Positions 1,071 through 23,904 of a DNA stretch of 64,000 nt are shown here, piece after piece; position 1 is the first letter of the stretch; each line of letters begins with the position of its first letter. Made by a program: the position numbers and the translations under genes. This DNA is from a virus (lineage: Duplodnaviria > Caudoviricetes). The notes beneath the pieces were generated by a model. The model saw only the letters and a list, made by a program, of their open reading frames with translations. It made no database searches and was not told where the DNA came from. The stretch lies in the IMG/VR virus record IMGVR_UViG_3300037418_000840; one strand, 5' to 3'.

Positions 1071-1117
1071 CAAGGCTGCCCATATTGCACGACTCTGTAT
1101 CCCACCGGAGATCTATA

Positions 1118-3319: not shown

Positions 3320-3323
3320 ATAG
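3316..3323 (+). promoter_or_regulatory. GTAAATA motif (candidate phage promoter)
   Basis: GTAAATAG at the gene end, upstream of structured RNA. Confidence 0.55.
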
Positions 3324-3442
3324 GTAGGTCGAGATAGACAGTGATCGGTCCTTTCAACTAGCAGTACGTTAAAGCAACGAATCGGGTCGCAACTCACACG
3401 CCGGGTGAGATCTGGTTTTATCCCAGATCACTGCTTGACTAA

Positions 3443-3518
3443 GATGGGGATAGTAGATCGGAGTAGACGCTCGCGCAACGCCTAGCACGAGAGAGGGGGT
3501 TCGACTCCCCACCCCATC
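3443..3518 (+). ncRNA. tRNA-like element lacking a D-stem
   Basis: GATGGGG/CCCCATC acceptor-like stem, GGGG-TTCGACT-CCCC T-arm, CTCG..CGAG middle arm with no canonical anticodon loop, no CCA. Confidence 0.55.
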
Positions 3519-3539
3519 CGATTAACCTAAGAGGTTCCT

Positions 3540-5252: not shown

Positions 5253-5629
5253 ACGCCCCCACGTATTACATGCCCGTCCAGGTTGGTGACTACTACAAGT
5301 TGACGATCAACCGTTCGTTGAATCAACTGCGATGGGCATTCGACGGCCAATCAAGTAAGGGCTTAGACTACGTGGTTATCCGGGATGATCAACTGAAGTT
5401 CAGTCTTCGTTGGATGCATCCTGATGTCGACCACGTTCGGTGTACGGCCCTTGCCACGTTCGATAGTCCTTGGTCCGGTGCGTTCAACGATTACTGTCGA
5501 TTGTGTGTCGCTCGGTTCACAGTCGACGTCGAAGGACGCGAGCTCAAGCCATCAATTGTCTTCCTGGGACAGACATTCGTACCAGTTGCCAAGGTGCCCC
5601 TCACCTTAATCAAGGACATGTTCAAATGA
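5249..5629 (+). CDS. Hypothetical protein
   Basis: ATGA overlap with the upstream stop. Confidence 0.65.
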   Translation: MNAPTYYMPVQVGDYYKLTINRSLNQLRWAFDGQSSKGLDYVVIRDDQLKFSLRWMHPDVDHVRCTALATFDSPWSGAFNDYCRLCVARFTVDVEGRELKPSIVFLGQTFVPVAKVPLTLIKDMFK

Positions 5630-6606
5630 AACCCGTGTTTGCCGTACAGGTCACCAATCGTGATGACGAAGATCTTCATCAGACAGTGCGGGCCATCACC
5701 GGCGCTGGCTATGAATGGATCAACTTCGGAGTCGTTCCCTTCGAAGACTCGGTGACCAACGTCGAGGAGTTCCCAGCTGATCGTCCGGTGATCGTGTTAG
5801 GTGGGACGTTGGCACTTCGTCTTTATCAAGAGAACAAGTTGCCTCCGAACTGGTATATGTTCTATAGCTACTGGCTGTTCGATCAGCACTCGACCCAGCT
5901 GTCGCCGCTGAAGACCTACATGGTCAACGAAGATCCAGAGTTCTACACGTTCGATGACGTGCGTGACCGGGTTTTCAAGCACGACGTGTTTATCAAGCCG
6001 TCGTCAGACATGAAGGCTTTCGCAGGCACTCTGGTGTCGAAGGGTACGACACTCGAAGATCATCTTAAGACAGTGAATCACGCGCTGATCAAGCCCCATG
6101 AAATCATTATGGTGGCGTCGCCCATCCAACTCGGCTACGAATATCGTGTGTTCATTGTCAACAATAAGATCGTGGACTGTTCACAATATCGTAGTCCGCG
6201 TGGAGTCGAACATCGAGCAGTTGGGGTCGATACCGCAGTCAAGCTCAGCGAGTTCTTTGATGAGGTGAAGTCCTACATCGAGAGCACACCGCTGACCGGC
6301 ACCTACTGCATGGACGTGGCCGAGACCAAGAACGGCTATCGCATCGTCGAATTCAACTGCTTCAACTGCTGTGGCATGTACAGAGCCGATCGCGTGCTTG
6401 TCCTGAGTGAATTGGGGGGCCGTAGTCGAGGCAACGAAATGGGACTGACGTCGTACACCAAAAAGATGGTGGCCCATATAACGCTCTTCTCGATCTTGAC
6501 CATCATTGCCAAGTTTGACTCGACGCTGGCCCTCATCATTGCCTGTGTCTGGTTCTGCCCTTCTCCCAAAGCTGAAGAGACCAACAATGCCAAACGTAAA
6601 GAGTGA
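5626..6606 (+). CDS. ATP-grasp domain protein (DUF4343-like) with C-terminal hydrophobic extension
   Basis: VFIKPSSDMKAFAG, EYRVFIV, YCMDVAET...IVEFNCFNCCGMY ATP-grasp motifs; ATGA overlap. Confidence 0.75.
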   Translation: MKPVFAVQVTNRDDEDLHQTVRAITGAGYEWINFGVVPFEDSVTNVEEFPADRPVIVLGGTLALRLYQENKLPPNWYMFYSYWLFDQHSTQLSPLKTYMVNEDPEFYTFDDVRDRVFKHDVFIKPSSDMKAFAGTLVSKGTTLEDHLKTVNHALIKPHEIIMVASPIQLGYEYRVFIVNNKIVDCSQYRSPRGVEHRAVGVDTAVKLSEFFDEVKSYIESTPLTGTYCMDVAETKNGYRIVEFNCFNCCGMYRADRVLVLSELGGRSRGNEMGLTSYTKKMVAHITLFSILTIIAKFDSTLALIIACVWFCPSPKAEETNNAKRKE

Positions 6607-8129: not shown

Positions 8130-8207
8130 GCCCCGTTAGCTCTTAATTGGCAGAGCAGCGGATTTGTAATCCGAGGGTTGGGAGTTCGAGTCTCTCACGG
8201 GGCACCA
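8130..8207 (+). tRNA. trnT: tRNA-Thr(UGU)
   Basis: Cloverleaf; loop TT-TGT-AA; encoded CCA. Confidence 0.95.
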
Positions 8208-8224
8208 TTCATCTAGAGGACATC

Positions 8225-8560
8225 ATGGCCAAGGTCAGCGTCAAAGGCACGTTTCACAAACAGGTCGAGGTCACACTCCCCGAATCGGAACTAGTCGATC
8301 ACGTGAAGGCCATCGTACGGCGACATCATAACATTCGTGAGGGCGATTTCCTTCGCGGAAACACGGTAGTCTACGATGATCCCGATCACCGACATGGTTC
8401 GATCCGAGAACTAGAACGTGGTCCAGCGTCTGAACTCCAGCTTCTCGGATTCCAGATCCTGGACTATCTTGGAAAGTTGAATCTCGTTCTCACGTCGGAA
8501 GAAAACCGGTCGATCATGGACTACGTACCGGGCCTACGCCGCCCCCAGTCCCCAATTTAA
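8225..8560 (+). CDS. Hypothetical protein
   Basis: GAGG RBS before ATG 8225. Confidence 0.7.
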   Translation: MAKVSVKGTFHKQVEVTLPESELVDHVKAIVRRHHNIREGDFLRGNTVVYDDPDHRHGSIRELERGPASELQLLGFQILDYLGKLNLVLTSEENRSIMDYVPGLRRPQSPI

Positions 8561-8576
8561 CGTTCCTGTCGTTGCA

Positions 8577-8584
8577 GTAAATAG
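8577..8584 (+). promoter_or_regulatory. GTAAATA motif
   Basis: GTAAATAG upstream of tRNA-Gly. Confidence 0.6.
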
Positions 8585-8600
8585 CACGGTAAGTCACGAA

Positions 8601-8676
8601 GCGAGCATACGTCAGTTGGTTAGACCACCGTCCTTCCAAGTCGGGAACCCGAGTTCGAATCTCGGTGCTCGCTCCA
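8601..8676 (+). tRNA. trnG: tRNA-Gly(UCC)
   Basis: Cloverleaf; loop CT-TCC-AA; CCA. Confidence 0.95.
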
Positions 8677-8695
8677 TCCTTTCCGGGAGCTTTAA

Positions 8696-8950
8696 ATGCC
8701 CATCTTGGGATCGACTCCGTGTTGCGACAATCATCTGTGTGTCTGGCTTGAGAACGAGAACGAAGTACTCGGTAAGTGGTACAAACACCAGTGCGAACAC
8801 TGTGGAACTTGGATCTTCACGCTTCTGTCGAATCTGAGTCCGGTGTCGTACACTGAGGAAGCGTTCAAGGCTGAATACGAAATCGATGAAGCAACGAAGC
8901 AGATCAAGAAGCGCGAATCATCCGAAGGACAAGTCACAAGCGTGCCGTAA
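8696..8950 (+). CDS. Small Cys-rich (Zn-binding?) protein
   Basis: PCC and CEHC motifs; GGAG RBS. Confidence 0.65.
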   Translation: MPILGSTPCCDNHLCVWLENENEVLGKWYKHQCEHCGTWIFTLLSNLSPVSYTEEAFKAEYEIDEATKQIKKRESSEGQVTSVP

Positions 8951-8954
8951 ATAC
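8947..8954 (+). promoter_or_regulatory. GTAAATA motif
   Basis: GTAAATAC inside GCCGT-AAAT-ACGGT hairpin, before tRNA-Gly. Confidence 0.6.
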
Positions 8955-8966
8955 GGTAAGCACAGC

Positions 8967-9041
8967 GCGGGCGTAGTTCAGTGGTAGAATTCTTGCTTGC
9001 CAAGCAAGAGGTCACGGGTTCGACCCCCGTCGCCCGCTCCA
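8967..9041 (+). tRNA. trnG: tRNA-Gly(GCC)
   Basis: Cloverleaf; loop TT-GCC-AA; CCA. Confidence 0.95.
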
Positions 9042-9120
9042 AGTTTCACGAACGTTCGTTCTGTCGTTTCGACTTGTAAGGTCCCCGTCTGAATTGACGA
9101 ACGTTCCCTTTGTCTTCTGT

Positions 9121-9196
9121 TCCGCTTAACGCACAACGGTGTGCGGCCGGACTGTTAATCCGTGTGAGTCAGGTTCGATTCCTGAAGGCGGAGCCA
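9121..9196 (+). tRNA. trnN: tRNA-Asn(GUU)
   Basis: Cloverleaf; loop CT-GTT-AA; CCA. Confidence 0.93.
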
Positions 9197-9222
9197 CCAA
9201 TTCCATCGTCAACGAGAACAAG

Positions 9223-9507
9223 ATGAAACTCCTCCCACTGTATGACCGAGTCCTTGTCAAGCCCCTCGACAAGAAAACCGAATCGGGTATCGTGATTGCC
9301 GGTTCGTCTGACCGAAACGATCAAGGCGAAGTCGTTGCCGTTGGTCCGGGTCCGATCCTCAACGACGGGACACAGAAGCCTCTGGCTGTCCAGGTCGGCG
9401 ACACCGTGATGTTCGTCCCTGGAACCGGTCATCCAGTGAAGATCGACGGCGAAGACATGCGTGTCTTCCCCGAGTTCGAACTCGTTGGCATCCTCCGCGA
9501 GGACTAG
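9223..9507 (+). CDS. groES: Co-chaperonin GroES
   Basis: MKLLPLYDRVLVKP...TESGIVI...GEVVAVGPG...VQVGDTVMF, 94 aa. Confidence 0.95.
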   Translation: MKLLPLYDRVLVKPLDKKTESGIVIAGSSDRNDQGEVVAVGPGPILNDGTQKPLAVQVGDTVMFVPGTGHPVKIDGEDMRVFPEFELVGILRED

Positions 9508-9509
9508 AC

Positions 9510-9947
9510 ATGAGCGGACGCCCGGTCAAGATTCTTCACCTAATGGTGGGTTCGGACAATTGGAAGCCGACACACGAGGAGTTGATTCAAGTAATTGAAT
9601 GCTTCGAATCAGCGTGCGAAGGCGGGAAGAAGTCGTTGTCTGCCGACGCAGCGGCCAAAGAAACAATGGTCGCAGTGGCAACGAATCACGAAGTGAAATC
9701 GGAAGTCCTTTCCATAACGGAAGACGATCCGATTTATGTTCTCGCCAACTTTGAATCACTTCGCGAGACAATTGCCCGTCGACTCCTCAACGAATTCTTG
9801 ATCGACTCGGCAACGCATCAACCGTTACCGCTCGATGCCTCGAAGGACACGGTGAATGGCTTCCATCTTTGCCTCAGCAATTTGAAGAAGCGAATTGAAG
9901 AACTCCTCGCAGAGGAGACGAAGGTTAGCGACAACAGACAGGCTTAA
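9510..9947 (+). CDS. Hypothetical protein
   Basis: GAGG RBS. Confidence 0.7.
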   Translation: MSGRPVKILHLMVGSDNWKPTHEELIQVIECFESACEGGKKSLSADAAAKETMVAVATNHEVKSEVLSITEDDPIYVLANFESLRETIARRLLNEFLIDSATHQPLPLDASKDTVNGFHLCLSNLKKRIEELLAEETKVSDNRQA

Positions 9948-10018
9948 CCAGATACCGAAATTTCTGGTCTGTCCTGGGTCGTCAAAACCGGGAACCGCGT
10001 CTAGACGCGACCCGGCCT

Positions 10019-10095
10019 CGGAGCGTAGCGCAGCCCGGTAGCGCATCTGATTTGGGATCAGAGGGTCGCAGGTTCGAATCCTGTCGCTCCGACCA
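10019..10095 (+). tRNA. trnP: tRNA-Pro(UGG)
   Basis: Cloverleaf; loop TT-TGG-GA; CCA. Confidence 0.95.
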
Positions 10096-10109
10096 GTTTT
10101 GTTTCACTT

Positions 10110-10271
10110 GTCCAGGATGCCAGAGTGGTTTAATGGTAGCTGAGTGGCCGAGTGGTGTGCGAGTTCCTGAAAGGAGCCGTAGTTCTAGACTGCGAGCCTT
10201 TAAACGGGGACGGCGGTGTCTCAGGCTGCCAGTCAAACACCCACGTAGGTTCGAATCCTACCCTGGACGCC
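10110..10271 (+). ncRNA. tRNA-like RNA with a large structured insert in place of the anticodon arm (nested tRNA-like element)
   Basis: GTCCAGG/CCTGGAC acceptor, CCA-GAGTGGTTTAA-TGG D-arm, GTAGG-TTCGAAT-CCTAC T-arm; insert 10138-10231 ends in GCCA. Confidence 0.65.
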
Positions 10272-10325
10272 TTATGAACGACGATTTGGTATTTGGATAA
10301 AGGGCACAAACTTGAATGCCGTGTG

Positions 10326-10430
10326 CGGCGAGAAGTGTGGTCCTCCAGCCTAGAATCGTCGTCCATAAGGCTTGACTTCTTAGGTGTGCGGGTTCGAGTC
10401 CCGATCGCTGGCCGAGACTATGGTAGACAC
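10326..10430 (+). ncRNA. tRNA-fragment element: T-arm followed by a Leu-type D-loop
   Basis: CGGG-TTCGAGT-CCCG at 10389-10403, then TGGCCGAGACTATGGTAGACAC. Confidence 0.45.
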
Positions 10431-10509
10431 AGCGGGCGGTAGCCACTCCGTCCGTGGAGCGCGCGGCCGGTGGGCCGTCCCTAAAAGACGGAACACCTAA
10501 GAGGTTAAG

Positions 10510-10716
10510 ATGAACAGTCCAAGTGCAGAGCAGGTTAGACTCTCACGAGTCCGAGCAGGTCTCACTCAGAAGCAAGCTGCTTCAGTTGTCTACGTCGGCG
10601 AACGTATGTGGCAGCGGTATGAAGCTGGGACATATGAAATGCATCCAGGACTGTGGGAACTGTTTCGTTACAAGGTCTTCCACGTTAGACCAGACCCAAT
10701 CACGGCTGGAGACTAG
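10510..10716 (+). CDS. XRE-family HTH regulator
   Basis: VRLSRVRAGLTQKQAASVVYVGERMWQRYEAG. Confidence 0.85.
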   Translation: MNSPSAEQVRLSRVRAGLTQKQAASVVYVGERMWQRYEAGTYEMHPGLWELFRYKVFHVRPDPITAGD

Positions 10717-10717
10717 C

Positions 10718-10972
10718 ATGACGACCATGAACGTACGAGACTTGATCTACGAGACTAAGGAATACGAAGGTCCTCTCAACCTTCCAGGAAAATCCATTGA
10801 ATGCCCCGAATGCAAGATTTTCTACGAGGCTAGTAAATGGAGTGCATGGGATTGCCCATGCGATTCATGCGGATCGCATCCAATCTTACTGTGTCCTGAG
10901 CGCCATACATTTGATCCGTATGGTGGAGATGACTTAGACTTGCAGGTCAAAGACGATGGCGTTGATCAGTAA
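10718..10972 (+). CDS. Zn-ribbon protein
   Basis: CPEC, CPCDSCG, CPERH; GGAG RBS. Confidence 0.7.
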   Translation: MTTMNVRDLIYETKEYEGPLNLPGKSIECPECKIFYEASKWSAWDCPCDSCGSHPILLCPERHTFDPYGGDDLDLQVKDDGVDQ

Positions 10973-11138
10973 TCGAGAATTCTTCGATCCGGAATTCTAC
11001 CGGTTCATGCAGCAAGATTTCGAGGACATACGACGCAGACGTAAGCAACTGAAAGGACGACCCGATTCTGAACAGATGGCCGTCCTTGAATGTGAGCGTC
11101 AGTTCGAAGCCTTCTACAAGAAGTTCCTCGATTTGTAG
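10956..11138 (+). CDS. Hypothetical protein
   Basis: Overlaps the upstream gene and ends just before tRNA-Ser. Confidence 0.55.
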   Translation: MALISNREFFDPEFYRFMQQDFEDIRRRRKQLKGRPDSEQMAVLECERQFEAFYKKFLDL

Positions 11139-11142
11139 ATTT

Positions 11143-11230
11143 GGAAATGTGGCTGAGTGGGTTAAGGCAGCGGCGTGCTAAGCCGTCGAGTCGCGAGGCT
11201 CCGTTGGTTCGAATCCAACCATTTCCGCCA
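11143..11230 (+). tRNA. trnS: tRNA-Ser(GCU)
   Basis: Long variable arm; loop GT-GCT-AA; GCCA end. Confidence 0.93.
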
Positions 11231-11234
11231 AGTA

Positions 11235-11324
11235 GTTCGTCTCTGAGGCGTTGGGTCAGCACCAACCGGCTCTCTCGTGGATACGAGGGGGCTGTGGTCT
11301 AGCGGTAAGGGCGCAGGGACGAAC
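11235..11324 (+). ncRNA. Circularly permuted tRNA-like RNA (YrlA-like topology)
   Basis: 11-bp closing stem, AGGC variable loop, 5-bp/7-nt T-like arm, 12-bp closed acceptor-like hairpin, TGGTCTAGCGGTAAGGGC D-arm. Confidence 0.7.
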
Positions 11325-11333
11325 GCTCGTTGA

Positions 11334-11421
11334 GGAAGCGTGGCTGAGTGGGTTAAGGCAGCGGTCTTGAAAACCGTCGTCGGGAAACCGGCCGTGAGTT
11401 CGAATCTCACCGCTTCCGCCA
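11334..11421 (+). tRNA. trnS: tRNA-Ser(UGA)
   Basis: Long variable arm; loop CT-TGA-AA; GCCA. Confidence 0.95.
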
Positions 11422-11492
11422 TTGTCGCAGTCTTCGTGTCACGCGTGGATAACAGGCATCCTGTGCTTGCCAAGTCGGACACGGAAATTCAC

Positions 11493-11560
11493 GGACCACT
11501 AACTCAGTGGTAGAGCGCCTCGTTAGAGGTTGGTCACGGGTTCGATTCCCGTGTGGTCCG
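11493..11560 (+). ncRNA. tRNA-like element with shrunken anticodon loop
   Basis: GGACCAC/GTGGTCC acceptor, CTCAGTGGTAGAG D-arm, ACGGG-TTCGATT-CCCGT T-arm; anticodon arm CCTC-GTTA-GAGG; no CCA. Confidence 0.65.
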
Positions 11561-11583
11561 TGTCACCGATTCAAGATGGTGTA

Positions 11584-11591
11584 GTAAATAC
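11584..11591 (+). promoter_or_regulatory. GTAAATA motif
   Basis: GTAAATAC in TAGT-AAAT-ACTA hairpin before tRNA-Tyr. Confidence 0.6.
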
Positions 11592-11603
11592 TAAGGTAAC
11601 GTC

Positions 11604-11689
11604 GGACGTGTAGTGTAAGTGGTCAAAACCAGTGGACTGTAAATCCGCCGCCTCGTGCTTCGTAGGTTCGAATCCTACCGCGTCCACCA
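11604..11689 (+). tRNA. trnY: tRNA-Tyr(GUA)
   Basis: Loop CT-GTA-AA; variable arm; CCA. Confidence 0.95.
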
Positions 11690-11705
11690 CTTCCTTAGAC
11701 TAGTT

Positions 11706-11825
11706 AGAAATCTTAGATGCGGCCGTATCTCAATGGTAGAGACCCGGATTGTGATTCCGGTTACGTGAGTTCGATTCTCACCGGTCGCCCCATAGGCCAC
11801 GAAGGCGGTCGCATCTAAGATTTCT
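11706..11825. repeat. 19-bp inverted repeat enclosing tRNA-His
   Basis: AGAAATCTTAGATGCGGCC (11706-11724) vs GGTCGCATCTAAGATTTCT (11807-11825), with one G-U pair. Confidence 0.9.
11719..11792 (+). tRNA. trnH: tRNA-His(GUG)
   Basis: Loop TT-GTG-AT; C73-CCA; no encoded G-1. Confidence 0.93.
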
Positions 11826-11827
11826 GT

Positions 11828-11904
11828 AGCGGGATAGAGCAGCTAGGTAGCTCGTCGGGCTCATAATCCGAAGGTCGGAGGTTCAAATCCTTCTCCCGCA
11901 ACCA
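11828..11904 (+). tRNA. trnfM: Initiator tRNA-fMet(CAU)
   Basis: 1:72 mismatch (A:A), GGG in the anticodon stem, loop CT-CAT-AA, CCA. Confidence 0.9.
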
Positions 11905-11912
11905 CCGTGTTG

Positions 11913-12038
11913 TGATCGCACTAAGGTCGTAGGAATGGACTAATCATCCGGACCCCAATTTCCATGGCCGCGCAGTAACCTCGTTACTGAGCCGTCTGGT
12001 GGTGTAGACCTGTCGGGAACGTGTTCCCGACGCGATCA
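11913..12038 (+). ncRNA. Candidate structured spacer RNA
   Basis: TGATCGC/GCGATCA closing stem enclosing hairpins CAGTAAC-CTC-GTTACTG and GTCGGGAAC-GT-GTTCCCGAC. Confidence 0.4.
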
Positions 12039-12066
12039 GCCTTTAGCTGTAGATTGTGAGGTCTTC

Positions 12067-12258
12067 ATGGACGCTCAACAGTACAAAAGCGCTATAGACG
12101 CGCTCCAGGACGGACCTCAATTGGTGCCTCGTACAGTAATCTACGACGGAGTTCTTTACGAACGTCGTCCTACGATAAGTGTGTGCTGGACCCCGAATGA
12201 TGGTTGGTCTGTCAAAGAGTACGACAAGATCGAGACTCAAAGTTTGAAGGCGTCATAG
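12067..12258 (+). CDS. Hypothetical protein; stop codon lies inside tRNA-Asp
   Basis: GAGG RBS; 63 aa. Confidence 0.6.
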   Translation: MDAQQYKSAIDALQDGPQLVPRTVIYDGVLYERRPTISVCWTPNDGWSVKEYDKIETQSLKAS

Positions 12259-12325
12259 AACAATTGGTTAGTTCACCGGCCTGTCACGCCGGAGGTTACG
12301 GGTTCGAGTCCCGTTGACGTCGCCA
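12249..12325 (+). tRNA. trnD: tRNA-Asp(GUC)
   Basis: Loop CT-GTC-AC; GCCA. Confidence 0.95.
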
Positions 12326-12384
12326 GTTAAACGGCGCGCGAATGGACATGCCAGTCCATGGTTTGAAACTTCGCTCGGCGTTTC

Positions 12385-12472
12385 GGGTGAGTAGTTCAGT
12401 GGTTAGAACACGGGCGACGCCTTCTCCGGTAGAAATCGCCTGAGGTCGTAGGTTCGAATCCTATCTCACCCA
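12385..12472 (+). ncRNA. tRNA-like element (Val-type acceptor) with anticodon arm extended by 15 nt
   Basis: GGGTGAG/CTCACCC acceptor, GTTC/GAAC D-stem, GTAGG-TTCGAAT-CCTAT T-arm; 22 nt between CGGGC and GCCTG; no CCA. Confidence 0.7.
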
Positions 12473-12563
12473 TCTTGTTTCAATGGGACAGCATTCTGAT
12501 TGGTCAGCCATCGGCGTCTGTGTTGACGCAACGTGCGGACACAAGAGGAGTGCGGTCCCGCCC

Positions 12564-12641
12564 GGGACCGTAGCTCAACGGATTTAGAGTAGTGGCCTAC
12601 GAAGCCATTGGTTGGGGGTTCGAATCCCTCCGGTCCCACCA
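12564..12641 (+). tRNA. trnR: tRNA-Arg(ACG)
   Basis: Loop CT-ACG-AA; CCA. Confidence 0.95.
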
Positions 12642-12653
12642 TTCATGCAGTAC

Positions 12654-12730
12654 AGTGGGGTAGCTCAGACGGTTAGAGCGTTCGCTTGATAAGCGAGAGG
12701 TCGGAGGTTCGACTCCTCTCCTCACTACCA
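12654..12730 (+). tRNA. trnI: tRNA-Ile(GAU)
   Basis: Loop TT-GAT-AA; CCA. Confidence 0.95.
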
Positions 12731-12738
12731 AGAAGTCC

Positions 12739-12814
12739 GGACAGGTAACTCAGTTGGTAGAGTGCTAGACTGAAAATCTAGTGGTCGCTGGTTCGATTCC
12801 AGTCCTGTCCACCA
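12739..12814 (+). tRNA. trnF: tRNA-Phe(GAA)
   Basis: Loop CT-GAA-AA; CCA. Confidence 0.95.
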
Positions 12815-12834
12815 AGTTGTTTCAGTACCGTGTA

Positions 12835-12842
12835 GTAAATAG
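12835..12842 (+). promoter_or_regulatory. GTAAATA motif
   Basis: GTAAATAG 11 nt before tRNA-Gln. Confidence 0.6.
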
Positions 12843-12853
12843 GTTGTGTCTGT

Positions 12854-12932
12854 TGGGGGTTAGCCAAGTCCGGTCCAAGGCAGTTGGTTTTGATCCAACC
12901 ATTCACAGGTTCGAATCCTGTACCCCCTGCCA
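12854..12932 (+). tRNA. trnQ: tRNA-Gln(UUG)
   Basis: Loop TT-TTG-AT; GCCA. Confidence 0.93.
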
Positions 12933-12943
12933 CTCACTCCTGT

Positions 12944-13018
12944 GTGTGATTCGTCTAGCGGTTAGGACACTGCCCTTTCACGGCGGTAACACGAGTTCGA
13001 ATCTCGTATCGCACGCCA
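12944..13018 (+). tRNA. trnE: tRNA-Glu(UUC)
   Basis: Loop CT-TTC-AC; GCCA. Confidence 0.95.
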
Positions 13019-13042
13019 TTCATTGATTCATCGTTTCATGCA

Positions 13043-13118
13043 GGGGCTTTAGTTCAGCTGGTAGAACAGCGGTCTCCAAAGCCGCGTGTCGGGAGTTCGA
13101 GTCTCTCAGGCCCCGCCA
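13043..13118 (+). tRNA. trnW: tRNA-Trp(CCA)
   Basis: Loop CT-CCA-AA; GCCA. Confidence 0.95.
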
Positions 13119-13128
13119 CCGTTTTTAT

Positions 13129-13190
13129 AGGGCGTCCCAGTCGTAGTAGTGTCGAACCCCCGTCGGCGCTGCTCGGGGACGCCCTCTTTT
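13129..13190 (+). terminator. Long hairpin with T-tract after tRNA-Trp
   Basis: AGGGCGTCCC/GGGACGCCCT stem plus an inner 8-bp stem, followed by CTTTT. Confidence 0.55.
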
Positions 13191-13209
13191 ATACCCATAG
13201 AGGTTCCAA

Positions 13210-13524
13210 ATGTCCGCCCAAGACGTGAACGTGCGTGAAGTGCCCGGCAACATCTCGATCCCTGACCTGAGTGATTATCATGGAACAGTCGCTGAACTGG
13301 AGCTCAGGGTAAATGCGCTAGCTCACGTATATGGTGGCGACTCAATCATCTCGTTCGACGCCGGACACAACAACATCGAAGCAGTGCTCGTAACTCGGGC
13401 CAGTATCGACGCTCACACGAAGGCCGTTCAAACCAAGGCCGAACGTCGCTCGTCCAAGAGGCGCGAGAAGCTGCAACGGCGCATCGCCGAACTTCAACAG
13501 GAACTGGAAGACCTCCATGACTGA
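13210..13524 (+). CDS. Hypothetical protein with C-terminal coiled coil
   Basis: GAGG RBS. Confidence 0.7.
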   Translation: MSAQDVNVREVPGNISIPDLSDYHGTVAELELRVNALAHVYGGDSIISFDAGHNNIEAVLVTRASIDAHTKAVQTKAERRSSKRREKLQRRIAELQQELEDLHD

Positions 13525-13717
13525 TGAAGTCTTGGTGTTAGAGGCGGCACTAAAGGCTCTGACCCGTAGATTCGACGAATTCGTGGGTCAGTGCATGGAC
13601 GATGCGGGAAAGCCGCGTGCGCCGTCGCCGAAGGCACTGGCCCAGGCTCGTGCCTGCCTTCCGCCTGAAACCACAAAGAACGGATACGCGTCTAAGTTCA
13701 AACCGGCGGCGATGTGA
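13517..13717 (+). CDS. Hypothetical protein; stop codon lies inside tRNA-Cys
   Basis: Overlaps the upstream stop. Confidence 0.65.
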   Translation: MTDEVLVLEAALKALTRRFDEFVGQCMDDAGKPRAPSPKALAQARACLPPETTKNGYASKFKPAAM

Positions 13718-13784
13718 CTGAGTGGTCTAAGGTCCGGGTCTGCAAAACCTTGGTTCGTGGGTTCGAATCCCACCATCGCCTCCA
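13708..13784 (+). tRNA. trnC: tRNA-Cys(GCA)
   Basis: Loop CT-GCA-AA; U73-CCA. Confidence 0.92.
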
Positions 13785-13792
13785 TACGTTGT

Positions 13793-13868
13793 GGGCCGTT
13801 AGCTCATTGGTCAAGAGCCGTGGACTCATAATCCACTGGTGACGGTTCGATTCCGTCACGGCCCACCA
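13793..13868 (+). tRNA. tRNA(CAU), Ile2 or elongator Met
   Basis: Loop CT-CAT-AA; paired 1:72; CCA; body resembles Ile2-type tRNAs. Confidence 0.9.
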
Positions 13869-14980: not shown

Positions 14981-15814
14981 ATGGCACGACTCCCACGGCT
15001 CTACATTCCTGGTCAGGCACAGTACGTCATCCTGCAAACGATAGACGAACGTCCCGCATTCGTGAACGATTCCGACTACGAATTCTTCCTCGAATGTGTT
15101 CGAGACGCTGTGCCGGTGGCAGACATAGCAATTCATGCGTATGCTCTTCTGCCAAACGCCGTTCATATGATGGTCACACCTTCGACTGAGACGTGTCTGC
15201 CGCTATTCATGCAGACTGTAGGTCGTCGTTACGTGGCGCGTTTCAATCGCGAACACGGTCGGAGAGGCACCATCTGGGCAGGTCGTTATCGTGCGACGGC
15301 CATCGAGGGATCTTCGTGGGGTATCTTCGCCTATCAGTACATCGACAAGCTAGTGCCTCGTTCCGAGGCCACAGCCTTGAAGTCGACCCTTGGTCTTCAC
15401 ATAGGGATCGAAGGATCAACGTTCGTAGTTCATCGTCCAGAATATTGGGCGCTTGGAAATACGCCGTTCGATCGTCAACACGTATATCGCCTTATGTGCG
15501 ATCAGGAACTCGATCCGACTCGCATCGAACTGCTGATCGATGCGGCTACACGCGGCTGGGCTCTTGGTAGTCCTGAGTATCTAGCCTGGGCCGCCACGGT
15601 CGCCAATCGTCGAATCGGCAAGATGAAGCGCGGTCGCCCACGCAAAGATGGAACTCCGCGACAAGTTGACGTTCGTACAGTAGCGAAATCCAACGCTCCG
15701 GCTGTGTCAACGGTTAATCCGTCAACAACAGAGCAAGCACCCCGCGTTTTGAGCGTTCCAACTGTGTGGCCCACTTTCCCTTCTCTCCATGGACAATCAA
15801 ATGACGATCAGTAA
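14981..15814 (+). CDS. RAYT/Y1 transposase homolog with degenerate HUH motif
   Basis: MARLPRL, IHAYALLPNAVHMM (NHxH changed to NAxH), GTIWAGRYRA, YWALGNTPF, KRGRPRK. Confidence 0.8.
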   Translation: MARLPRLYIPGQAQYVILQTIDERPAFVNDSDYEFFLECVRDAVPVADIAIHAYALLPNAVHMMVTPSTETCLPLFMQTVGRRYVARFNREHGRRGTIWAGRYRATAIEGSSWGIFAYQYIDKLVPRSEATALKSTLGLHIGIEGSTFVVHRPEYWALGNTPFDRQHVYRLMCDQELDPTRIELLIDAATRGWALGSPEYLAWAATVANRRIGKMKRGRPRKDGTPRQVDVRTVAKSNAPAVSTVNPSTTEQAPRVLSVPTVWPTFPSLHGQSNDDQ

Positions 15815-16192: not shown

Positions 16193-16228
16193 AGCGCCAC
16201 GCCCGTTTGGGTCTGGCGCTTTCTTTTT
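16193..16228 (+). terminator. Rho-independent terminator-like hairpin
   Basis: AGCGCCA/TGGCGCT followed by TTCTTTTT. Confidence 0.65.
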
Positions 16229-16250
16229 GACTTTCCTTGAGAGGTCGTAC

Positions 16251-17360
16251 ATGGGTTGGACTGATAAGGTGTACAAGACACGTGACGAAGAGTTCGTCGA
16301 CGAACTCTCCCTTCTGTACGAAATCATCGCAAAGACGGAGGATCCCGCTGCGAAGTCGATCCTTCATCGAATCAGCAGCCGCATCACTCGATTGAAGATG
16401 CGCTACGCACGAACGACACCGGGCCGTCGTGCTGATCCGCGTGACGATCTTACAATGCCCGAAGGATTTCTTCCCAATGAAGATGGAACATTCCGTGGTG
16501 TTCCTCCGTGGGCGATGCGTGAAGCAAACATGCTGTGCGCATCATTGACCGGCAATCGTTCCTATGACGTGCCTCTTGTTGGCGAAACATTGGCCGACGT
16601 GTTTGACGCACGCATGAACGAAATCCTCAACAGCGTGCGCGAATCGTTGACCGGCGTCTTCGTCGAGCAACGCAAAGAACGAATGGTGACCCACGAGCAG
16701 CTGAACACGCCGCTCGACGCAGCGGCTCGTCTTCAATCAGGTGAGTTCAACACCAAGAAATTTGTCGACGAATTCAAGGCTGCGGCACGCCCTACGAAGG
16801 GTCTTAACTTCCCATGTCCGATCTGCAACGGCGTCGAAGGTTGTGATCACTCGGTGCCAGAACGTCTACGTGCCGTAGTCCAACTCGAAGTATCTGCCGA
16901 AGTGGCTGACAAGATCAAAGACGGACGGCTTCCTGAGGTCAGCATCGGTGCCGTAGTCAGTAATGAGGCCGATCCGCATAAGCAAGATGCGAAACGCCTG
17001 TCATCTGATGACAAAGACCTGCTAGGTTTCTTCCTGTCGGTCAAAGACGTGAACATGCTTCAAGTTGGAACTGTTCTGAAGACGATTGACCAGGCGAAGA
17101 CTGCGCATCACACGGACATCAAGCTACGGATCGACGGCGCTGACTACTTCCAAGAAGGCGACTGGGTCAAACATCTGAAACCCGTGCGTACTGATCGAGC
17201 GATGGCCGACGAAGCTACACTGGCGTTTCTCAAGCGATCATCCAAATTGCCTGACGATTTGGAGGTCGATTGGACTGCCACTCGTTCGTATCGATTCTCT
17301 GAATGGCGAACGCACGTAGTCAACGCCATTTCGGTCTTTTTGGGAGTAACCAAGCGATGA
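16251..17360 (+). CDS. Hypothetical multidomain protein (CPICNG...CDH motif)
   Basis: GAGG RBS; 369 aa. Confidence 0.7.
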   Translation: MGWTDKVYKTRDEEFVDELSLLYEIIAKTEDPAAKSILHRISSRITRLKMRYARTTPGRRADPRDDLTMPEGFLPNEDGTFRGVPPWAMREANMLCASLTGNRSYDVPLVGETLADVFDARMNEILNSVRESLTGVFVEQRKERMVTHEQLNTPLDAAARLQSGEFNTKKFVDEFKAAARPTKGLNFPCPICNGVEGCDHSVPERLRAVVQLEVSAEVADKIKDGRLPEVSIGAVVSNEADPHKQDAKRLSSDDKDLLGFFLSVKDVNMLQVGTVLKTIDQAKTAHHTDIKLRIDGADYFQEGDWVKHLKPVRTDRAMADEATLAFLKRSSKLPDDLEVDWTATRSYRFSEWRTHVVNAISVFLGVTKR

Positions 17361-17554
17361 CCTTCGAAACCACAAAGGCTGATGAAGCCCTTCGCGAAGC
17401 CAAGCAGCATATCGATACGGCGATCAAGCTCATGTCTGGTATCGTCGTCGATCAAGTACCGGGGACCAGCAACTGGACTTCGGTGTACCGCAGTCGTATC
17501 CGGAACGGCATGAACAAGCTGATTGACGTCCGGGAAGAGCTCAACAACCCCTGA
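17357..17554 (+). CDS. Hypothetical protein
   Basis: ATGA overlap. Confidence 0.65.
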   Translation: MTFETTKADEALREAKQHIDTAIKLMSGIVVDQVPGTSNWTSVYRSRIRNGMNKLIDVREELNNP

Positions 17555-17565
17555 GGAACTGACAA

Positions 17566-17871
17566 ATGGCATTTACCGCAAAATTCAAGAAGTTCGTGGC
17601 CCTACTCGCCGTGACGGGTGGCGTATGCTACGGAGTCTACTACATGAAGACTCACAAGAAGCCGATCGACGCCGAAGCGCAGACGGCGACAGCATCCCAA
17701 GCGGACACGGCGGCGCAATCGGTGGTTCCTACACCATCGCCAGTTCCCCAATCGTCAGCCGTGCATGAGGCTGAGCCGGCTCCTACACAATCGACACCGG
17801 TGCAGCAGTCCCAGAGTGATCCGTCGCAAGATCGTGGAATGAAGTTCTTGCTCGACCAGGGAAAGAAGTGA
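17566..17871 (+). CDS. N-terminally membrane-anchored protein with P/Q/S/T-rich tail
   Basis: GAGG RBS; KKFVALLAVTGGVCYGVYY. Confidence 0.75.
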   Translation: MAFTAKFKKFVALLAVTGGVCYGVYYMKTHKKPIDAEAQTATASQADTAAQSVVPTPSPVPQSSAVHEAEPAPTQSTPVQQSQSDPSQDRGMKFLLDQGKK

Positions 17872-18518
17872 TGGCTACCCTGTACCAACACATGACGGCC
17901 CACGCACGAATCATCGACTATGCGGCCCAGCGCAGGCACGAAATCGACAAGCAGATCGAACAGCTCAAGCTGGAACGCGAGATGTTCGACGAGGTAAGTC
18001 GCGTCTATTCGTCGATGGTGTGCCCCACTTGCAATGGGCAAGGCAACATCATGAAGGCGATCGATGGTTGCGAATGCGACGGGCCGCGCCAACACGTCTG
18101 TCCATCGTGTAATGGTTGCCGCACCCGAACGGCTTTCGATGCGCTCAAGTCCAATCCCAGCATGAAGGAATTCCTGAAGGACGTAGTGGGTGTTGTCGAA
18201 GCCACGTCTTACGAGAAATTATGTCTATGGAGTGAATGGACTACGGAAAAGAAGAAGTCCTGGATTCAAGGCTCCAGTGGCTACCTGCCGACTATCGGTA
18301 AGCTAGATGGCCGCCCAATAGTACTGAGTTTACTGATTCACATAGTGGACGGCTATCCAATCCTTTTCATGGAGCCTACCAGTCAAGTGATAGACCACAA
18401 GATGGTCGAAGACTGGTTAAAACTTCATCTGCCAAAGACAGCCTTTCAGTCGAATGGTGAGTACGTCAACAAGGTTGACGCGATGAATTTCCACAACGTT
18501 TTTCCTTCAAGGGGTTGA
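17868..18518 (+). CDS. Hypothetical protein with DnaJ-like CxxCxGxG zinc motifs
   Basis: CPTCNGQG, CPSCNGC. Confidence 0.7.
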   Translation: MMATLYQHMTAHARIIDYAAQRRHEIDKQIEQLKLEREMFDEVSRVYSSMVCPTCNGQGNIMKAIDGCECDGPRQHVCPSCNGCRTRTAFDALKSNPSMKEFLKDVVGVVEATSYEKLCLWSEWTTEKKKSWIQGSSGYLPTIGKLDGRPIVLSLLIHIVDGYPILFMEPTSQVIDHKMVEDWLKLHLPKTAFQSNGEYVNKVDAMNFHNVFPSRG

Positions 18519-23416: not shown

Positions 23417-23870
23417 GCCGACAGGTGAACGTTATTCCTACGATCTGGCTACGCCAACGATCACGGGCTTCTTTGGCGACAATCGAGTCCTGAGCAACTT
23501 CTATCCACGAGAGCTCGTATTATACAACATACCGTTCAAGACAGCCGAACACGCGTATGTATGGCACAAGTCTAATGACCTTGCTTTTCGACGCATGGTC
23601 CTGGCCGCACGATCTCCCGTAGAAGCCAAACGCATAGGTCGTAAGGTTCAGCTACGTGCTGATTGGGAACAGGTCAAACTCCAGACGATGCGCATCGTTC
23701 TGGACGCCAAGTTTCGAGACCCTCAGCTACGCGATTTCCTGTTGAACACCGGTTTCCGTTATCTCGAAGAGCTCAACACGTGGGACGATCGTTATTGGGG
23801 CGTATGTGGAGGCCTTGGCAAGAACCATCTTGGACGCCAACTGATGGTCGTCAGGGAAAGCTACCGATAA
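23385..23870 (+). CDS. NADAR (YbiA-like) ADP-ribosylhydrolase family protein
   Basis: LSNFYP, TAEHAY, AKRIGRKV.LRADWE, LLNTG...E.NTWDDRYWGV, GKNHLG. Confidence 0.9.
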   Translation: MTWTLQKKIYRPTGERYSYDLATPTITGFFGDNRVLSNFYPRELVLYNIPFKTAEHAYVWHKSNDLAFRRMVLAARSPVEAKRIGRKVQLRADWEQVKLQTMRIVLDAKFRDPQLRDFLLNTGFRYLEELNTWDDRYWGVCGGLGKNHLGRQLMVVRESYR

Positions 23871-23904
23871 ATTTGATGGTAAACGCCCTTACTATGAGGA
23901 CCCT

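What the first reader, a model, noticed from the sequence alone, without database searches (positions are those of the whole stretch)
11235..11324. Circularly permuted tRNA fold opened at the anticodon
Seen, 5' to 3': GTTCGTCTCTG (pairs with CAGGGACGAAC, 11 bp) - AGGC - GTTGG/GTCAGCA/CCAAC (T-arm geometry, degenerate loop) - 12-bp hairpin CGGCTCTCTCGT-GGAT-ACGAGGGGGCTG (closed acceptor) - TG GTCT AGCGGTAA GGGC G (D-arm with GG). This is a complete tRNA elbow with the acceptor end closed and the anticodon loop replaced by the termini. Established: bacterial YrlA Y-RNAs and permuted tRNA genes have this topology. The acceptor carries GGGGCTG with G3-U70, and GACGAACG on the 3' strand resembles the GNCGAAN(0-1)G Y-RNA motif, although on the opposite strand from expected. 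No Ro60/Rsr gene is in this window. Flanking tRNA-Ser processing would release it.
Basis: partly seen in the sequence, partly recalled or inferred. Interest (0 to 1): 0.75.

Follow-up and report, generated by a model that had tools for sequence, protein, structure and literature searches.

The report
Back-to-front sealed tRNA look-alike in phage
Between two serine tRNA genes, an uncultured giant soil phage encodes a 90-base RNA built like a tRNA with its arms in permuted order, its amino-acid end sealed and no anticodon; it has the shape of the tRNA-like head of bacterial Y RNAs, but no Ro-type partner gene and no relative were found, so its job is unknown.

Summary
Window 11235-11324 (+) reads as: closing helix (11 bp), 4-nt variable loop, T arm, 12-bp capped acceptor hairpin, UG, D arm, G, closing helix. 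All 32 pairs are standard or G-U.

When I rejoin it in normal tRNA order with a dummy anticodon loop, ARAGORN calls it a tRNA; 0 of 2000 shuffled controls pass. It is therefore a tRNA-derived, circularly permuted, acceptor-closed, anticodon-less RNA.

This is the architecture of the tRNA-like domain of YrlA and of the RNAs beside "Ro-like" (DUF2828/DUF7788) genes in Felix O1 and three other phages that I checked.

Family membership is not shown:
- Rfam YrlA gives no hit.
- A model built from five Ro-like-linked heads aligns it in register but scores only 8.1 bits.
- GNCGAAN(0-1)G is on the wrong strand.
- No TROVE, DUF2828 or DUF7788 gene is in the 172-kb record (72% complete) or in five relatives.

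No homologue was found anywhere, so there is no covariation. Expression is unproven.

Most likely it is a non-decoding tRNA mimic, freed by processing of the flanking tRNAs, that binds a protein recognising tRNA shape. This scan has found similar RNAs in other phages, usually with a partner gene.

The parts
11143..11230 (+). tRNA-Ser(GCU) with encoded CCA. Its 3' end lies 4 nt before the element.
   Evidence: ARAGORN; Rfam tRNA 54.6 bits
11231..11234 (+). 5' spacer AGUA. AGU can pair with GCU at 11325-11327, leaving A11234 bulged and extending the closing helix to 14 bp.
   Evidence: MFE structure
11235..11245 (+). Closing helix P1, 5' strand. The inner 5 nt correspond to the 3' strand of a tRNA anticodon stem.
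   Evidence: pair probabilities 0.95-1.0
11246..11249 (+). Variable loop AGGC (A44, G45, G46, C48). C48 can form the Levitt pair with G15.
   Evidence: read from the sequence; ARAGORN drawing of the re-joined form
11250..11266 (+). T arm: 5-bp stem with G53-C61 and a 7-nt loop GUCAGCA (U55, C56, A57 kept; G54 and G58 atypical).
   Evidence: aligned in register to the T arms of five phage YrlA-like heads
11267..11294 (+). Closed acceptor hairpin: 12 bp capped by GGAU. The 7 bp next to the junction equal acceptor positions 1-7/66-72 (G1-U72, G2-C71, G3-U70, G4-C69, C5-G68, U6-G67, G7-C66).
   Evidence: pair probabilities 0.87-1.0
11295..11296 (+). Linker UG (positions 8 and 9; U8 conserved).
   Evidence: the same UG or UA linker is present in the Felix O1, Whirlwind, Klebsiella-phage and phiN3 heads
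11297..11312 (+). D arm: 4-bp stem and an 8-nt loop AGCGGUAA (A14, G15, G18, G19, A21).
11313..11313 (+). G at position 26.
11314..11324 (+). Closing helix P1, 3' strand. It carries GACGAACG, which fits GNCGAAN(0-1)G but lies on the strand opposite to YrlA's.
   Evidence: motif definition from PMC4201824
11325..11333 (+). 3' spacer GCUCGUUGA, ending where RNase P would cut to make the 5' end of tRNA-Ser(UGA).
   Evidence: the cut itself is inferred
11334..11421 (+). tRNA-Ser(UGA) with encoded CCA.
   Evidence: ARAGORN; Rfam tRNA 58.8 bits

Best explanation
The element is a tRNA-derived RNA gene whose parts are circularly permuted. The acceptor helix is sealed into a 12-bp hairpin, and the two strands of the former anticodon stem are extended into an 11-14-bp terminal helix with no anticodon loop. 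It therefore cannot decode and, as made, cannot be aminoacylated.

It occupies one slot in a co-oriented array of about 20 tRNA genes. It is most likely transcribed with them and released as a stable RNA of about 95-103 nt by the enzymes that mature its neighbours. RNase P would cut at the 5' end of tRNA-Ser(UGA). Endo- and exonucleases would trim behind the CCA of tRNA-Ser(GCU) and nibble the 3' overhang back to the terminal helix.

Its likely job is molecular mimicry. It would present a tRNA elbow and body to a protein that recognises tRNA shape, as adaptor or decoy, like the tRNA-like head of YrlA-type Y RNAs, while staying immune to enzymes that act on anticodon loops or free 3' ends. The partner is not identified.

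Shown: the sequence anatomy, the strand specificity, the tRNA-grade geometry, and the shared architecture with YrlA-type heads. Inferred: transcription, processing, stability and protein binding.
For: - Exact anatomy with tRNA linker lengths 4/0/2/1 and 32 of 32 pairs standard or G-U.
- Strong, strand-specific folding: z -4.1 on + against -1.7 on -.
- ARAGORN accepts the re-joined form as a tRNA; 0 of 2000 shuffled controls pass.
- The tertiary-contact nucleotides U8, A14, G15-C48, G18, G19, A21, G26, G53-C61, U55 and C56 are all present (read against the positions listed in 10.1101/312249).
- The two long helices run 5 and 6 perfect pairs beyond the tRNA boundaries. A mere junction of broken tRNA genes would not give this.
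- Spacing to the neighbours (4 and 9 nt) is like the 8-12-nt spacers between other tRNAs of the array.
- MAFFT and a covariance model place it in register with heads next to Ro-like genes in Felix O1, mycobacteriophage Whirlwind, Klebsiella phage phi1_175008 and Sinorhizobium phage phiN3.
- The same array holds other non-decoding tRNA bodies, for example 11493-11562 with a 4-nt loop in place of the anticodon loop, which points to a theme rather than an accident.
- The element is identical in assemblies from several rhizosphere and soil runs, including a strain with 7 differences in the 1.2 kb around it, all of them upstream.
Against: - It is a singleton. I found no homologue in five IMG/VR relatives, five cultured phages, the phage and plasmid collections, or pattern scans of viral, metagenome and genome collections. 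There is therefore no covariation support.
- The T loop lacks the U54-A58 pair that defines T loops.
- Thermodynamic prediction prefers a rod in which the T and D regions pair with each other; the T and D hairpins have under 1% ensemble probability. Real tRNAs of the cluster show similar gaps.
- No transcript ends or abundance data exist. Contigs from RNA libraries cover it only at the same flat depth as the neighbouring genes.
- No partner protein was found.
Confidence: 0.5

Rival explanations
1. It is a true Y RNA of the YrlA type that works with a Ro60-type ring protein. That protein would be encoded either in the roughly 50 kb of the phage genome not seen here or by the host (Rsr). The terminal helix with its bulged A and the GACGAACG strand would be the protein-binding site, and the tRNA-like head would recruit an effector.
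For: - Every described RNA with this architecture is linked to a Ro-type protein: YrlA within 4 kb of rsr in 254 bacteria and 22 phages (PMC4201824), and Bas63 gp130 directly upstream of tRNA genes (10.1101/2024.10.10.617714).
- I confirmed the same pairing in Felix O1 and sub-threshold YrlA hits next to DUF2828 genes in three other phages.
- The record is only 72% complete.
Against: - No TROVE, DUF2828 or DUF7788 match in the 172-kb record or in five relatives, two of them 97-100% complete, while the Felix O1 control rings.
- A gene list reaching about 9 kb past the record's end shows no gene of that size or family.
- No ORF of 150 aa or more lies within 3 kb on either side.
- Rfam YrlA gives no hit at E<=10.
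- The motif is on the 3' strand, whereas Ro60 contacts mainly the 5' strand (PMC4201824).
- With tRNAs 4 and 9 nt away there is no room for the long bulged stem of YrlA or of the Felix O1 RNA.
Confidence: 0.15
2. It is a functionless by-product of rearrangement in a fast-evolving tRNA array: the 3' half of one tRNA copy and the 5' half of the next copy, left after deletions, still folding because the halves are complementary.
For: - The array is lineage-specific: relatives carry only 2-6 tRNAs.
- The element has no homologue anywhere.
- Its T loop is degenerate at positions 54 and 58.
- Tandem tRNA junctions do mimic this order, as shown by the YrlA and R2 model hits on real junctions.
Against: - The hairpin and the closing helix extend 5 and 6 perfect pairs beyond the tRNA boundaries. 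My estimate of the chance for 11 extra pairs is about (6/16)^11, or 2e-5.
- There is no CCA remnant after position 73, although all canonical tRNAs here encode CCA.
- No stem carries a mismatch.
- No tRNA of the array resembles either half; the best local alignment scores are 12 of 31 and 10 of 34.
Confidence: 0.15
3. It is a structured spacer whose role lies in the helices, not in tRNA mimicry. For example, it could keep the two nearly identical tRNA-Ser precursors from mispairing, or guide or slow nuclease processing of the polycistronic transcript.
For: - It lies exactly between two tRNA-Ser genes whose first 31 nt are nearly the same.
- The two long helices dominate the predicted ensemble.
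Against: A spacer hairpin does not need tRNA linker lengths, a D loop with A14/G18/G19/A21, a Levitt pair or a G53-C61 T stem. ARAGORN accepts the re-joined form, against 0 of 2000 controls.
Confidence: 0.1
4. It is a two-piece tRNA-like molecule in waiting. RNase P would cut at G1 inside the hairpin, the 3' tail would be trimmed and given CCA as reported for Mycobacterium smegmatis YrlA, and the G3-U70 acceptor (GGGGCU, like tRNA-Ala and tmRNA) would be charged or bound by alanyl-tRNA synthetase.
For: [quoted passage not shown]
- The acceptor has G2-C71, G3-U70 and G4-C69.
- The array has no tRNA-Ala.
- From my own knowledge: AlaRS needs only the acceptor helix.
Against: - The helix continues 5 pairs past position 1/72 with no single-stranded leader. 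The paper ascribes cleavage to a 7-bp stem closed by a loop and saw none in YrlAs with other stems.
- Position 73 is C, not A, and 1-72 is G-U.
- There is no CCA.
- G3-U70 is one of three G-U pairs in the hairpin.
Confidence: 0.05

Closest known systems
YrlA (Y RNA-like A; Rfam RF02553; Chen et al. 2014, PMC4201824; structure in Wang et al. 2018, 10.1101/312249)
   Same: - Same order of parts: terminal helix, variable region, T arm, loop-capped acceptor-like stem, two-nucleotide linker, D arm, terminal helix.
- No anticodon loop and no free CCA.
- Levitt pair, U8, A14, G18/G19, U55/C56 present.
- Acceptor-like stem length varies between species in YrlA too.
   Different: - No Rfam hit.
- No rsr/TROVE gene nearby or in the record.
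- The GNCGAAN(0-1)G motif is on the 3' strand, not the 5' strand.
- The T loop lacks U54 and A58.
- The terminal helix is short (11-14 bp) and continuous, not the long bulged Ro-binding stem.
- It is embedded between tRNA genes of a phiRSL1-like jumbo phage.
Permuted tRNA-like RNAs beside 'Ro-like RNA binding protein' genes (Pfam DUF2828 + DUF7788) in phages: Felix O1 ORF42 with the RNA at NC_005282 about 24577-24710; Bas63 gp130 (10.1101/2024.10.10.617714)
   Same: - Located inside a phage tRNA array.
- T arm abuts a capped acceptor-like hairpin, followed by UG and a 4-bp D stem with a GG loop.
   Different: - The Felix O1 RNA has a canonical UUCGAUU T loop, a 7-bp acceptor-like stem, an extra variable hairpin and a long outer helix whose sequence recurs several times in the array.
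- It lies about 1.1 kb downstream of the Ro-like gene.
- Here there is no such gene.
- A model built from five such heads gives only 8.1 bits.
Circularly permuted tRNA genes of the red alga Cyanidioschyzon merolae
   Same: The 3' half of the tRNA is encoded upstream of the 5' half, and the acceptor strands are joined by a short linker.
   Different: - Those genes keep all anticodon-loop nucleotides and are matured through a circular intermediate cut at bulge-helix-bulge motifs into normal decoding tRNAs.
- Here the loop nucleotides are absent, no such motif exists, and the acceptor is a continuous 12-bp helix.
Stable 'species 1' and 'species 2' RNAs (rnaC, rnaD) of the phage T4 tRNA cluster (from my own knowledge)
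   Same: Non-decoding structured small RNAs encoded within a phage tRNA array and released by tRNA-processing enzymes. Their function is still unknown.
   Different: As far as I recall they are not permuted tRNAs and they carry a tRNA-like 3' end. No sequence comparison was made here.
Two-piece (permuted) tmRNA (Rfam RF04321)
   Same: Permuted gene order, and a GGGGCU acceptor strand with G3-U70.
   Different: - No tag reading frame and no pseudoknots.
- A full D arm is present.
- Neither ARAGORN nor Rfam detects a tmRNA.

Membership tests
YrlA (Rfam RF02553) | Scores at or above the curated covariance-model threshold (69 bits) | tested here: not met
   There is no YrlA match at E<=10 when only 161 nt around the element are searched. 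The model's only hits in the window are junctions of adjacent real tRNAs at 23-24 bits.
YrlA (Rfam RF02553) | Encoded within about 4 kb of, and on the same strand as, an Rsr/Ro60 (TROVE) gene | tested here: not met
   PF05731 has no match in the 172-kb record or in five relatives, while controls ring. No ORF of 150 aa or more lies within 3 kb. Caveat: the record is 72% complete.
YrlA (Rfam RF02553) | GNCGAAN(0-1)G motif near the 5' end (5' strand of the terminal helix) | tested here: not met
   The 5' strand reads GUUCGUCUCUG. The motif-like GACGAACG is on the 3' strand.
YrlA (Rfam RF02553) | Order T arm, loop-capped acceptor-like stem, D arm, closed by pairing of the 5' and 3' ends | tested here: met
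   It also aligns in register to the consensus of phage heads.
YrlA (Rfam RF02553) | Conserved tertiary-contact nucleotides in the D loop, T loop, last variable-loop pyrimidine, linker dinucleotide and Levitt pair | tested here: inconclusive
   Present: U8, A14, G15-C48, G18, G19, A21, C48, G53-C61, U55, C56. Absent: U54 and A58 (both G). The linker is UG instead of UA (against 10.1101/312249).
Phage Ro-like (DUF2828/DUF7788)-linked YrlA-like RNAs | A DUF2828/DUF7788 gene in the same genome, usually within a few kb | tested here: not met
   PF11443 and PF25043 give no match in the record or in five relatives. Felix O1, run as positive control, gives 69 and 150 bits. tblastn with Felix O1 ORF42 finds nothing.
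Phage Ro-like (DUF2828/DUF7788)-linked YrlA-like RNAs | Significant score against a covariance model built from such heads, without the element itself | tested here: not met
   Model R2 (five heads) aligns the element end to end in the right register. The score is 8.1 bits: E 0.0026 in 111 nt, but not listed at E<=10 in the 64-kb window. The model is not discriminating, because real tRNA junctions score 13-43 bits.
DUF7873-linked permuted tRNA-like RNAs (known only from earlier notes of this scan) | A DUF7873 gene of about 245 aa directly upstream | tested here: inconclusive
   No ORF of that size lies within 3 kb. Of 28 ORFs of the window and the adjoining end of the record scanned against Pfam, 8 were scanned at E<=10 and the others at E<=0.01; none matched it. 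I did not have the accession, so I could not run a genome-wide search.
Permuted (decoding) tRNA gene | Anticodon-loop nucleotides recoverable by joining the termini, and a bulge-helix-bulge or other excision signal | tested here: not met
   The terminal helix is continuous for 11 bp, then a 1-nt bulge and 3 bp. There are no loop nucleotides and no pair of 3-nt bulges.
tRNA (Rfam RF00005) or tmRNA | Detected as such in its native order | tested here: not met
   ARAGORN and Rfam find nothing at 11231-11333. There is no tmRNA in the record.

The most novel reading that the evidence does not exclude
The element is a Ro-independent, minimal 'sealed tRNA'. It would be one of a set of anticodon-less tRNA bodies in this array (also 11493-11562, 12385-12472, 10110-10271). 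The phage would make them to soak up or misdirect a host factor that recognises tRNA shape, for example a tRNA-directed defence nuclease or another tRNA-binding enzyme. With neither an anticodon loop nor a free 3' end, the decoy itself could not be destroyed.
Probability: 0.2. Interest if true: 0.75.

Novelty: new variant of a known kind. Interest (0 to 1): 0.45.

Why it matters
Phage tRNA arrays are usually read as codon supplements or as replacements for tRNAs cut by host defences. A sealed, anticodon-less tRNA look-alike occupying a tRNA slot, in a phage with no detectable Ro-type gene, would show that the YrlA-type head can work without Ro, or with a host Ro.

The array holds at least one more anticodon-less tRNA body (11493-11562) and several tRNA-like elements with a remodelled anticodon region. 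Together they would point to RNA mimicry as a separate use of these arrays.

The element is short and self-contained, which makes it a convenient bait for finding the still unknown partner of the tRNA-like domain of Y RNAs. The claim is limited for now: it is a single sequence without relatives or expression data.

Tried and rejected
**Homologue searches, all empty or chance**
- Exact 31-, 25-, 19- and 18-nt words in viral contigs and genomes.
- blastn against phages and plasmids.
- A single-sequence covariance model (R1) on five IMG/VR relatives and on phiRSL1, BcepSauron, BCSR5, Motura and XacN1.
- A loop-only pattern (22 fixed bases) in viral, metagenome and genome collections. It gave 0, 2 and 2 matches, and none of the matches scores with R1.
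- A weak R1 hit in relative G002 (12 bits) lies inside a coding frame.

**Neighbouring proteins**
- The 149-aa frame upstream has no relative in viral contigs.
- In the protein collection its only match is the 84-aa gene called inside it, 100% identical and from this same phage.
- All copies of the element fetched that way are identical.

**Sequencing runs**
- Contigs of two RNA libraries from roots cover the element together with neighbouring genes at flat depth. This does not show transcription, ends or abundance.
- A DNA run from 2017 left the element uncovered.

**Partner genes**
- RtcB (PF01139) and Rnl2-type RNA ligase (PF09414) are not in the record.
- Walking beyond the record's end stopped after one step, because the only contig offered came without DNA.

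**Other**
- The promoter and terminator scan gave no more sites than shuffled sequence.
- No tRNA of the array looks like a parent of either half.

Full report
**Where it lies**

The window is part of a 171,762-base IMG/VR virus record that CheckV estimates to be 72% complete. Its DNA polymerase is 58% identical to those of Ralstonia phage phiRSL1 and Burkholderia phage BcepSauron, and 66-71% identical to four uncultured viral contigs. It is therefore a phiRSL1-like jumbo phage.

All 20 tRNA genes that ARAGORN finds in the record sit in one co-oriented array at window 8130-13868. The relatives have only 2-6 tRNAs each, so the array is a lineage-specific acquisition.

The element fills the 103-nt gap between tRNA-Ser(GCU), which ends with CCA at 11230, and tRNA-Ser(UGA), which starts at 11334.

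**Check of the observation**

There are four helices:
- a closing helix of 11 bp, extendable to 14 bp with one bulged A;
- a 5-bp stem with a 7-nt loop;
- a 12-bp hairpin capped by GGAU;
- a 4-bp stem with an 8-nt loop.

All 32 pairs are Watson-Crick or G-U. The single-stranded linkers are 4, 0, 2 and 1 nt long. These are the tRNA values for the variable loop, the T/acceptor junction, positions 8-9 and position 26.

The + strand folds at -49.4 kcal/mol (z -4.1). The - strand reaches only -28.6 (z -1.7), because six G-U pairs turn into C-A. The structure is thus specific to the strand on which all the tRNAs are encoded.

Is the tRNA likeness more than an impression? I re-joined the halves in normal order with a dummy anticodon loop and CCA. 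ARAGORN called a 75-nt tRNA at default settings, with the element's own T loop. None of 2000 constructs with shuffled halves was called.

Numbered as a tRNA, it has U8, A14, G15 paired to C48 (Levitt pair), G18, G19, A21, G26, G53-C61, U55, C56 and A57. These are the contacts that hold the elbow in tRNA and in the crystal structure of the Salmonella YrlA domain (10.1101/312249).

Two cautions apply:
- Positions 54 and 58 are both G, where T loops have a U-A reverse-Hoogsteen pair.
- RNAfold prefers a rod in which the T and D regions pair with each other. The tRNA-like fold is 4.0 kcal/mol higher, and the T and D hairpins have under 1% ensemble probability.

The second point is weak evidence. 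For the 20 real tRNAs of the same array the cloverleaf is not the minimum-energy fold in 13 cases. The gap has a median of 2.15 kcal/mol and is 4 or more in 6 cases.

**What it is not**

- It is not a junction of two adjacent tRNAs, which is the known false positive for this architecture (PMC4201824). The flanking tRNAs are complete and only 4 and 9 nt away, and the closing helix pairs with itself.
- It is not a decodable permuted tRNA gene. The closing helix is continuous, there are no anticodon-loop nucleotides to recover, and there is no bulge-helix-bulge motif.
- It is not a tmRNA.
- It is probably not a simple remnant. The hairpin and the closing helix run 5 and 6 perfect pairs past the tRNA boundaries. 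There is no CCA after position 73, although every canonical tRNA here encodes CCA. No tRNA of the array resembles either half.

**Comparison with YrlA**

Chen et al. (PMC4201824) define YrlA RNAs by four features:
- a 5' GNCGAAN(0-1)G motif;
- T, acceptor-like (AS) and D stem-loops in that order;
- a position within 4 kb of rsr on the same strand;
- an Infernal model.

[quoted passage not shown] The element has that order and closure. It fails the other tests:
- Rfam RF02553 gives no match at E<=10 in a 161-nt search. In the window the model finds only real tRNA junctions at 23-24 bits.
- The motif-like GACGAACG lies on the 3' strand.
- TROVE is absent from the record and from five relatives, two of them 97-100% complete.

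**Comparison with phage "Ro-like" systems**

Earlier notes of this scan led me to a second group: permuted tRNA-like RNAs in phage tRNA arrays next to a Ro60-fold protein. I checked this myself.

- Felix O1 ORF42 lies directly upstream of its tRNA array and carries Pfam DUF2828 and DUF7788.
- tblastn finds relatives in 710 phage records. Some mycobacteriophage copies are annotated "Ro-like RNA binding protein".
- A preprint reports that the Bas63 homologue gp130 counters the Ppl defence, and speculates that some neighbouring "tRNA genes" are Y RNAs (10.1101/2024.10.10.617714).
- About 1.1 kb downstream of ORF42, Felix O1 has a T arm, a 7-bp capped hairpin, UG and a D arm inside a long outer helix.
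- Sub-threshold YrlA hits (34-38 bits) lie next to the DUF2828 genes of Whirlwind, Klebsiella phage phi1_175008 and phiN3.
- In a plain MAFFT alignment the present element lines up with these heads arm for arm.
- The five heads alone show compensatory changes in 9 of 14 pairs.

The link stops at architecture. A covariance model built from the five heads, without the element, aligns it end to end in register. The score is only 8.1 bits, and the element is not listed in a whole-window search. That model is dominated by canonical T- and D-loop sequence and scores real tRNA junctions at 13-43 bits, so it is a poor judge.

DUF2828 and DUF7788 are absent from the record and the five relatives, while the Felix O1 control gives 69 and 150 bits. 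tblastn with ORF42 is empty. A gene list reaching about 9 kb beyond the record's end shows only small genes and a NUDIX protein. The larger ORFs of the surrounding 25 kb and of the last 7.8 kb of the record match unrelated families or none. RtcB and Rnl2-type ligase are also absent. About 50 kb of the genome remains unseen.

**Conservation and expression**

I found no homologue by any route (listed under Tried and rejected), so the structure has no covariation support.

The same phage occurs in assemblies from several rhizosphere, root and soil runs. All fetched copies of the element are identical.

One strain, seen in two RNA libraries and one DNA run, differs at 7 positions between 10634 and 11096 and at none between 11097 and 11680. 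At that density, an unchanged 90 nt is expected more often than not, so this says little.

The RNA-library contigs cover the element together with the neighbouring ORFs at flat depth and cannot show a transcript.

In those runs, bins over several real tRNAs reach depths of hundreds to thousands because other organisms' tRNAs match. The element's bins stay at phage depth. Nothing at 85% identity or more to the element is therefore common in those communities.

**How it most likely works**

Shown: a tRNA-grade, permuted, sealed, anticodon-less fold on the tRNA strand, occupying a tRNA slot.

Inferred: it is co-transcribed with the array and set free by the maturation of its neighbours. RNase P would cut at 11333/11334. 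Trimming would follow behind the CCA at 11230, and exonucleases would stop at the terminal helix. The product would be a compact RNA of about 95-103 nt.

With no anticodon loop and no free 3' end, the accessible tRNA features are the elbow and the two coaxial stacks. I therefore favour a mimic that binds a protein recognising tRNA shape (confidence 0.5).

The array also holds other non-decoding tRNA bodies. The clearest is 11493-11562: a normal D arm, T arm and 7-bp acceptor, but a 4-nt loop in place of the anticodon loop and no CCA. This makes a decoy theme plausible but unproven.

The rivals, in order of my odds:
- a true Y RNA with a partner not yet seen (0.15);
- a remnant of array rearrangement (0.15);
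- a structured spacer (0.10);
- a two-piece Ala-type acceptor after RNase P cleavage (0.05).

**Verdict**

It is a new variant of a known kind, namely a YrlA-type tRNA-like head without the recognised Ro-binding module or partner gene, in a phage lineage where none was known.

Interest is moderate. The shape is striking and the anatomy secure, but it is a single sequence with no relatives, no expression data and no partner. This scan has already met the same architecture many times in other phages, usually with a partner gene.

Noticed in passing
window 11493-11562 (+): A tRNA body with a normal 7-bp acceptor (extendable to 10 bp by flanking CAC/GUG), D arm, variable loop and T arm. A 5-bp stem capped by the 4-nt loop GUUA stands where the anticodon loop should be, and there is no CCA. 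Rfam tRNA scores 43 bits; ARAGORN does not call it.
   Followed up: partly
window 12385-12472 (+): An 88-nt tRNA-like gene that ARAGORN calls tRNA-Gly(GCC) and Rfam scores at 58 bits. It has an anticodon arm lengthened by about 15 nt and no encoded CCA. The anticodon call is doubtful.
   Followed up: no
window 10110-10271 (+): A roughly 160-nt element with a perfect 7-bp acceptor, a class II-type D region and a canonical T arm, but about 100 nt between them. No detector calls it. Folding z is only -1.7.
   Followed up: partly
window 10381-10499 (+): A four-way-junction RNA closed by a 7-bp helix (UAGGUGU/ACACCUA). Its first hairpin carries a canonical T loop (UUCGAGU). A long branched hairpin and a 5-bp/7-nt hairpin follow. 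The 233-nt region 10268-10500 folds with z -4.3. The order of parts recalls the element studied here, but the last hairpin has no D-loop features.
   Followed up: partly
window 3320-3519 (+): A roughly 115-nt hairpin-type structure directly followed by a tRNA-like element (7-bp acceptor and T arm, poor D region, no CCA), 4.6 kb upstream of the array and right after an unannotated 270-aa ORF. There are no Rfam hits at E<=1, and folding z is -0.7.
   Followed up: partly
L007 1495-1572 and 1722-1835 (- strand; relative G002, a complete 217.6-kb viral contig): The relative's only two Rfam tRNA hits both have oversized anticodon regions: 17 nt and 50 nt where the model expects 11 and 9. Remodelled anticodon arms may therefore be a trait of this phage lineage.
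   Followed up: no
window 14981-15814 (+) and 16227-18518 (+): An IS200-like Y1 transposase gene (PF01797, E 1e-5) lies just downstream of the tRNA array. It is followed by ORFs of which one has a weak Cas12f1-like TNB-domain hit (E 0.004). This may be an IS200/IS605-type element.
   Followed up: no
window 11911-12053 and 11037-11096: Strain variation in public runs. Contigs of an RNA library and of a soil DNA run join 11910 to 12054, skipping 143 nt of the spacer after tRNA-Met. Six of seven single-base differences cluster within 60 nt of the small ORF 10956-11138.
   Followed up: no
window 5470-6606 (+), 1067-1852 (+): An R2K-clade ATP-grasp protein (PF18299/PF14243, E 1e-18) and a GntR-family regulator lie upstream of the tRNA array. 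The gene table of locus L013 also lists a Cpn10-like gene at about window 9223-9507, inside the array.
   Followed up: no
L030 367-440, 535-600, 990-1065, 1077-1207 (Felix O1, NC_005282 about 23866-24706): Four units in the Felix O1 tRNA array begin with CAGAAGACC and end with GGTCTGG. Only the last encloses the permuted tRNA-like head. They look like a family of Y-like RNAs sharing one stem.
   Followed up: partly
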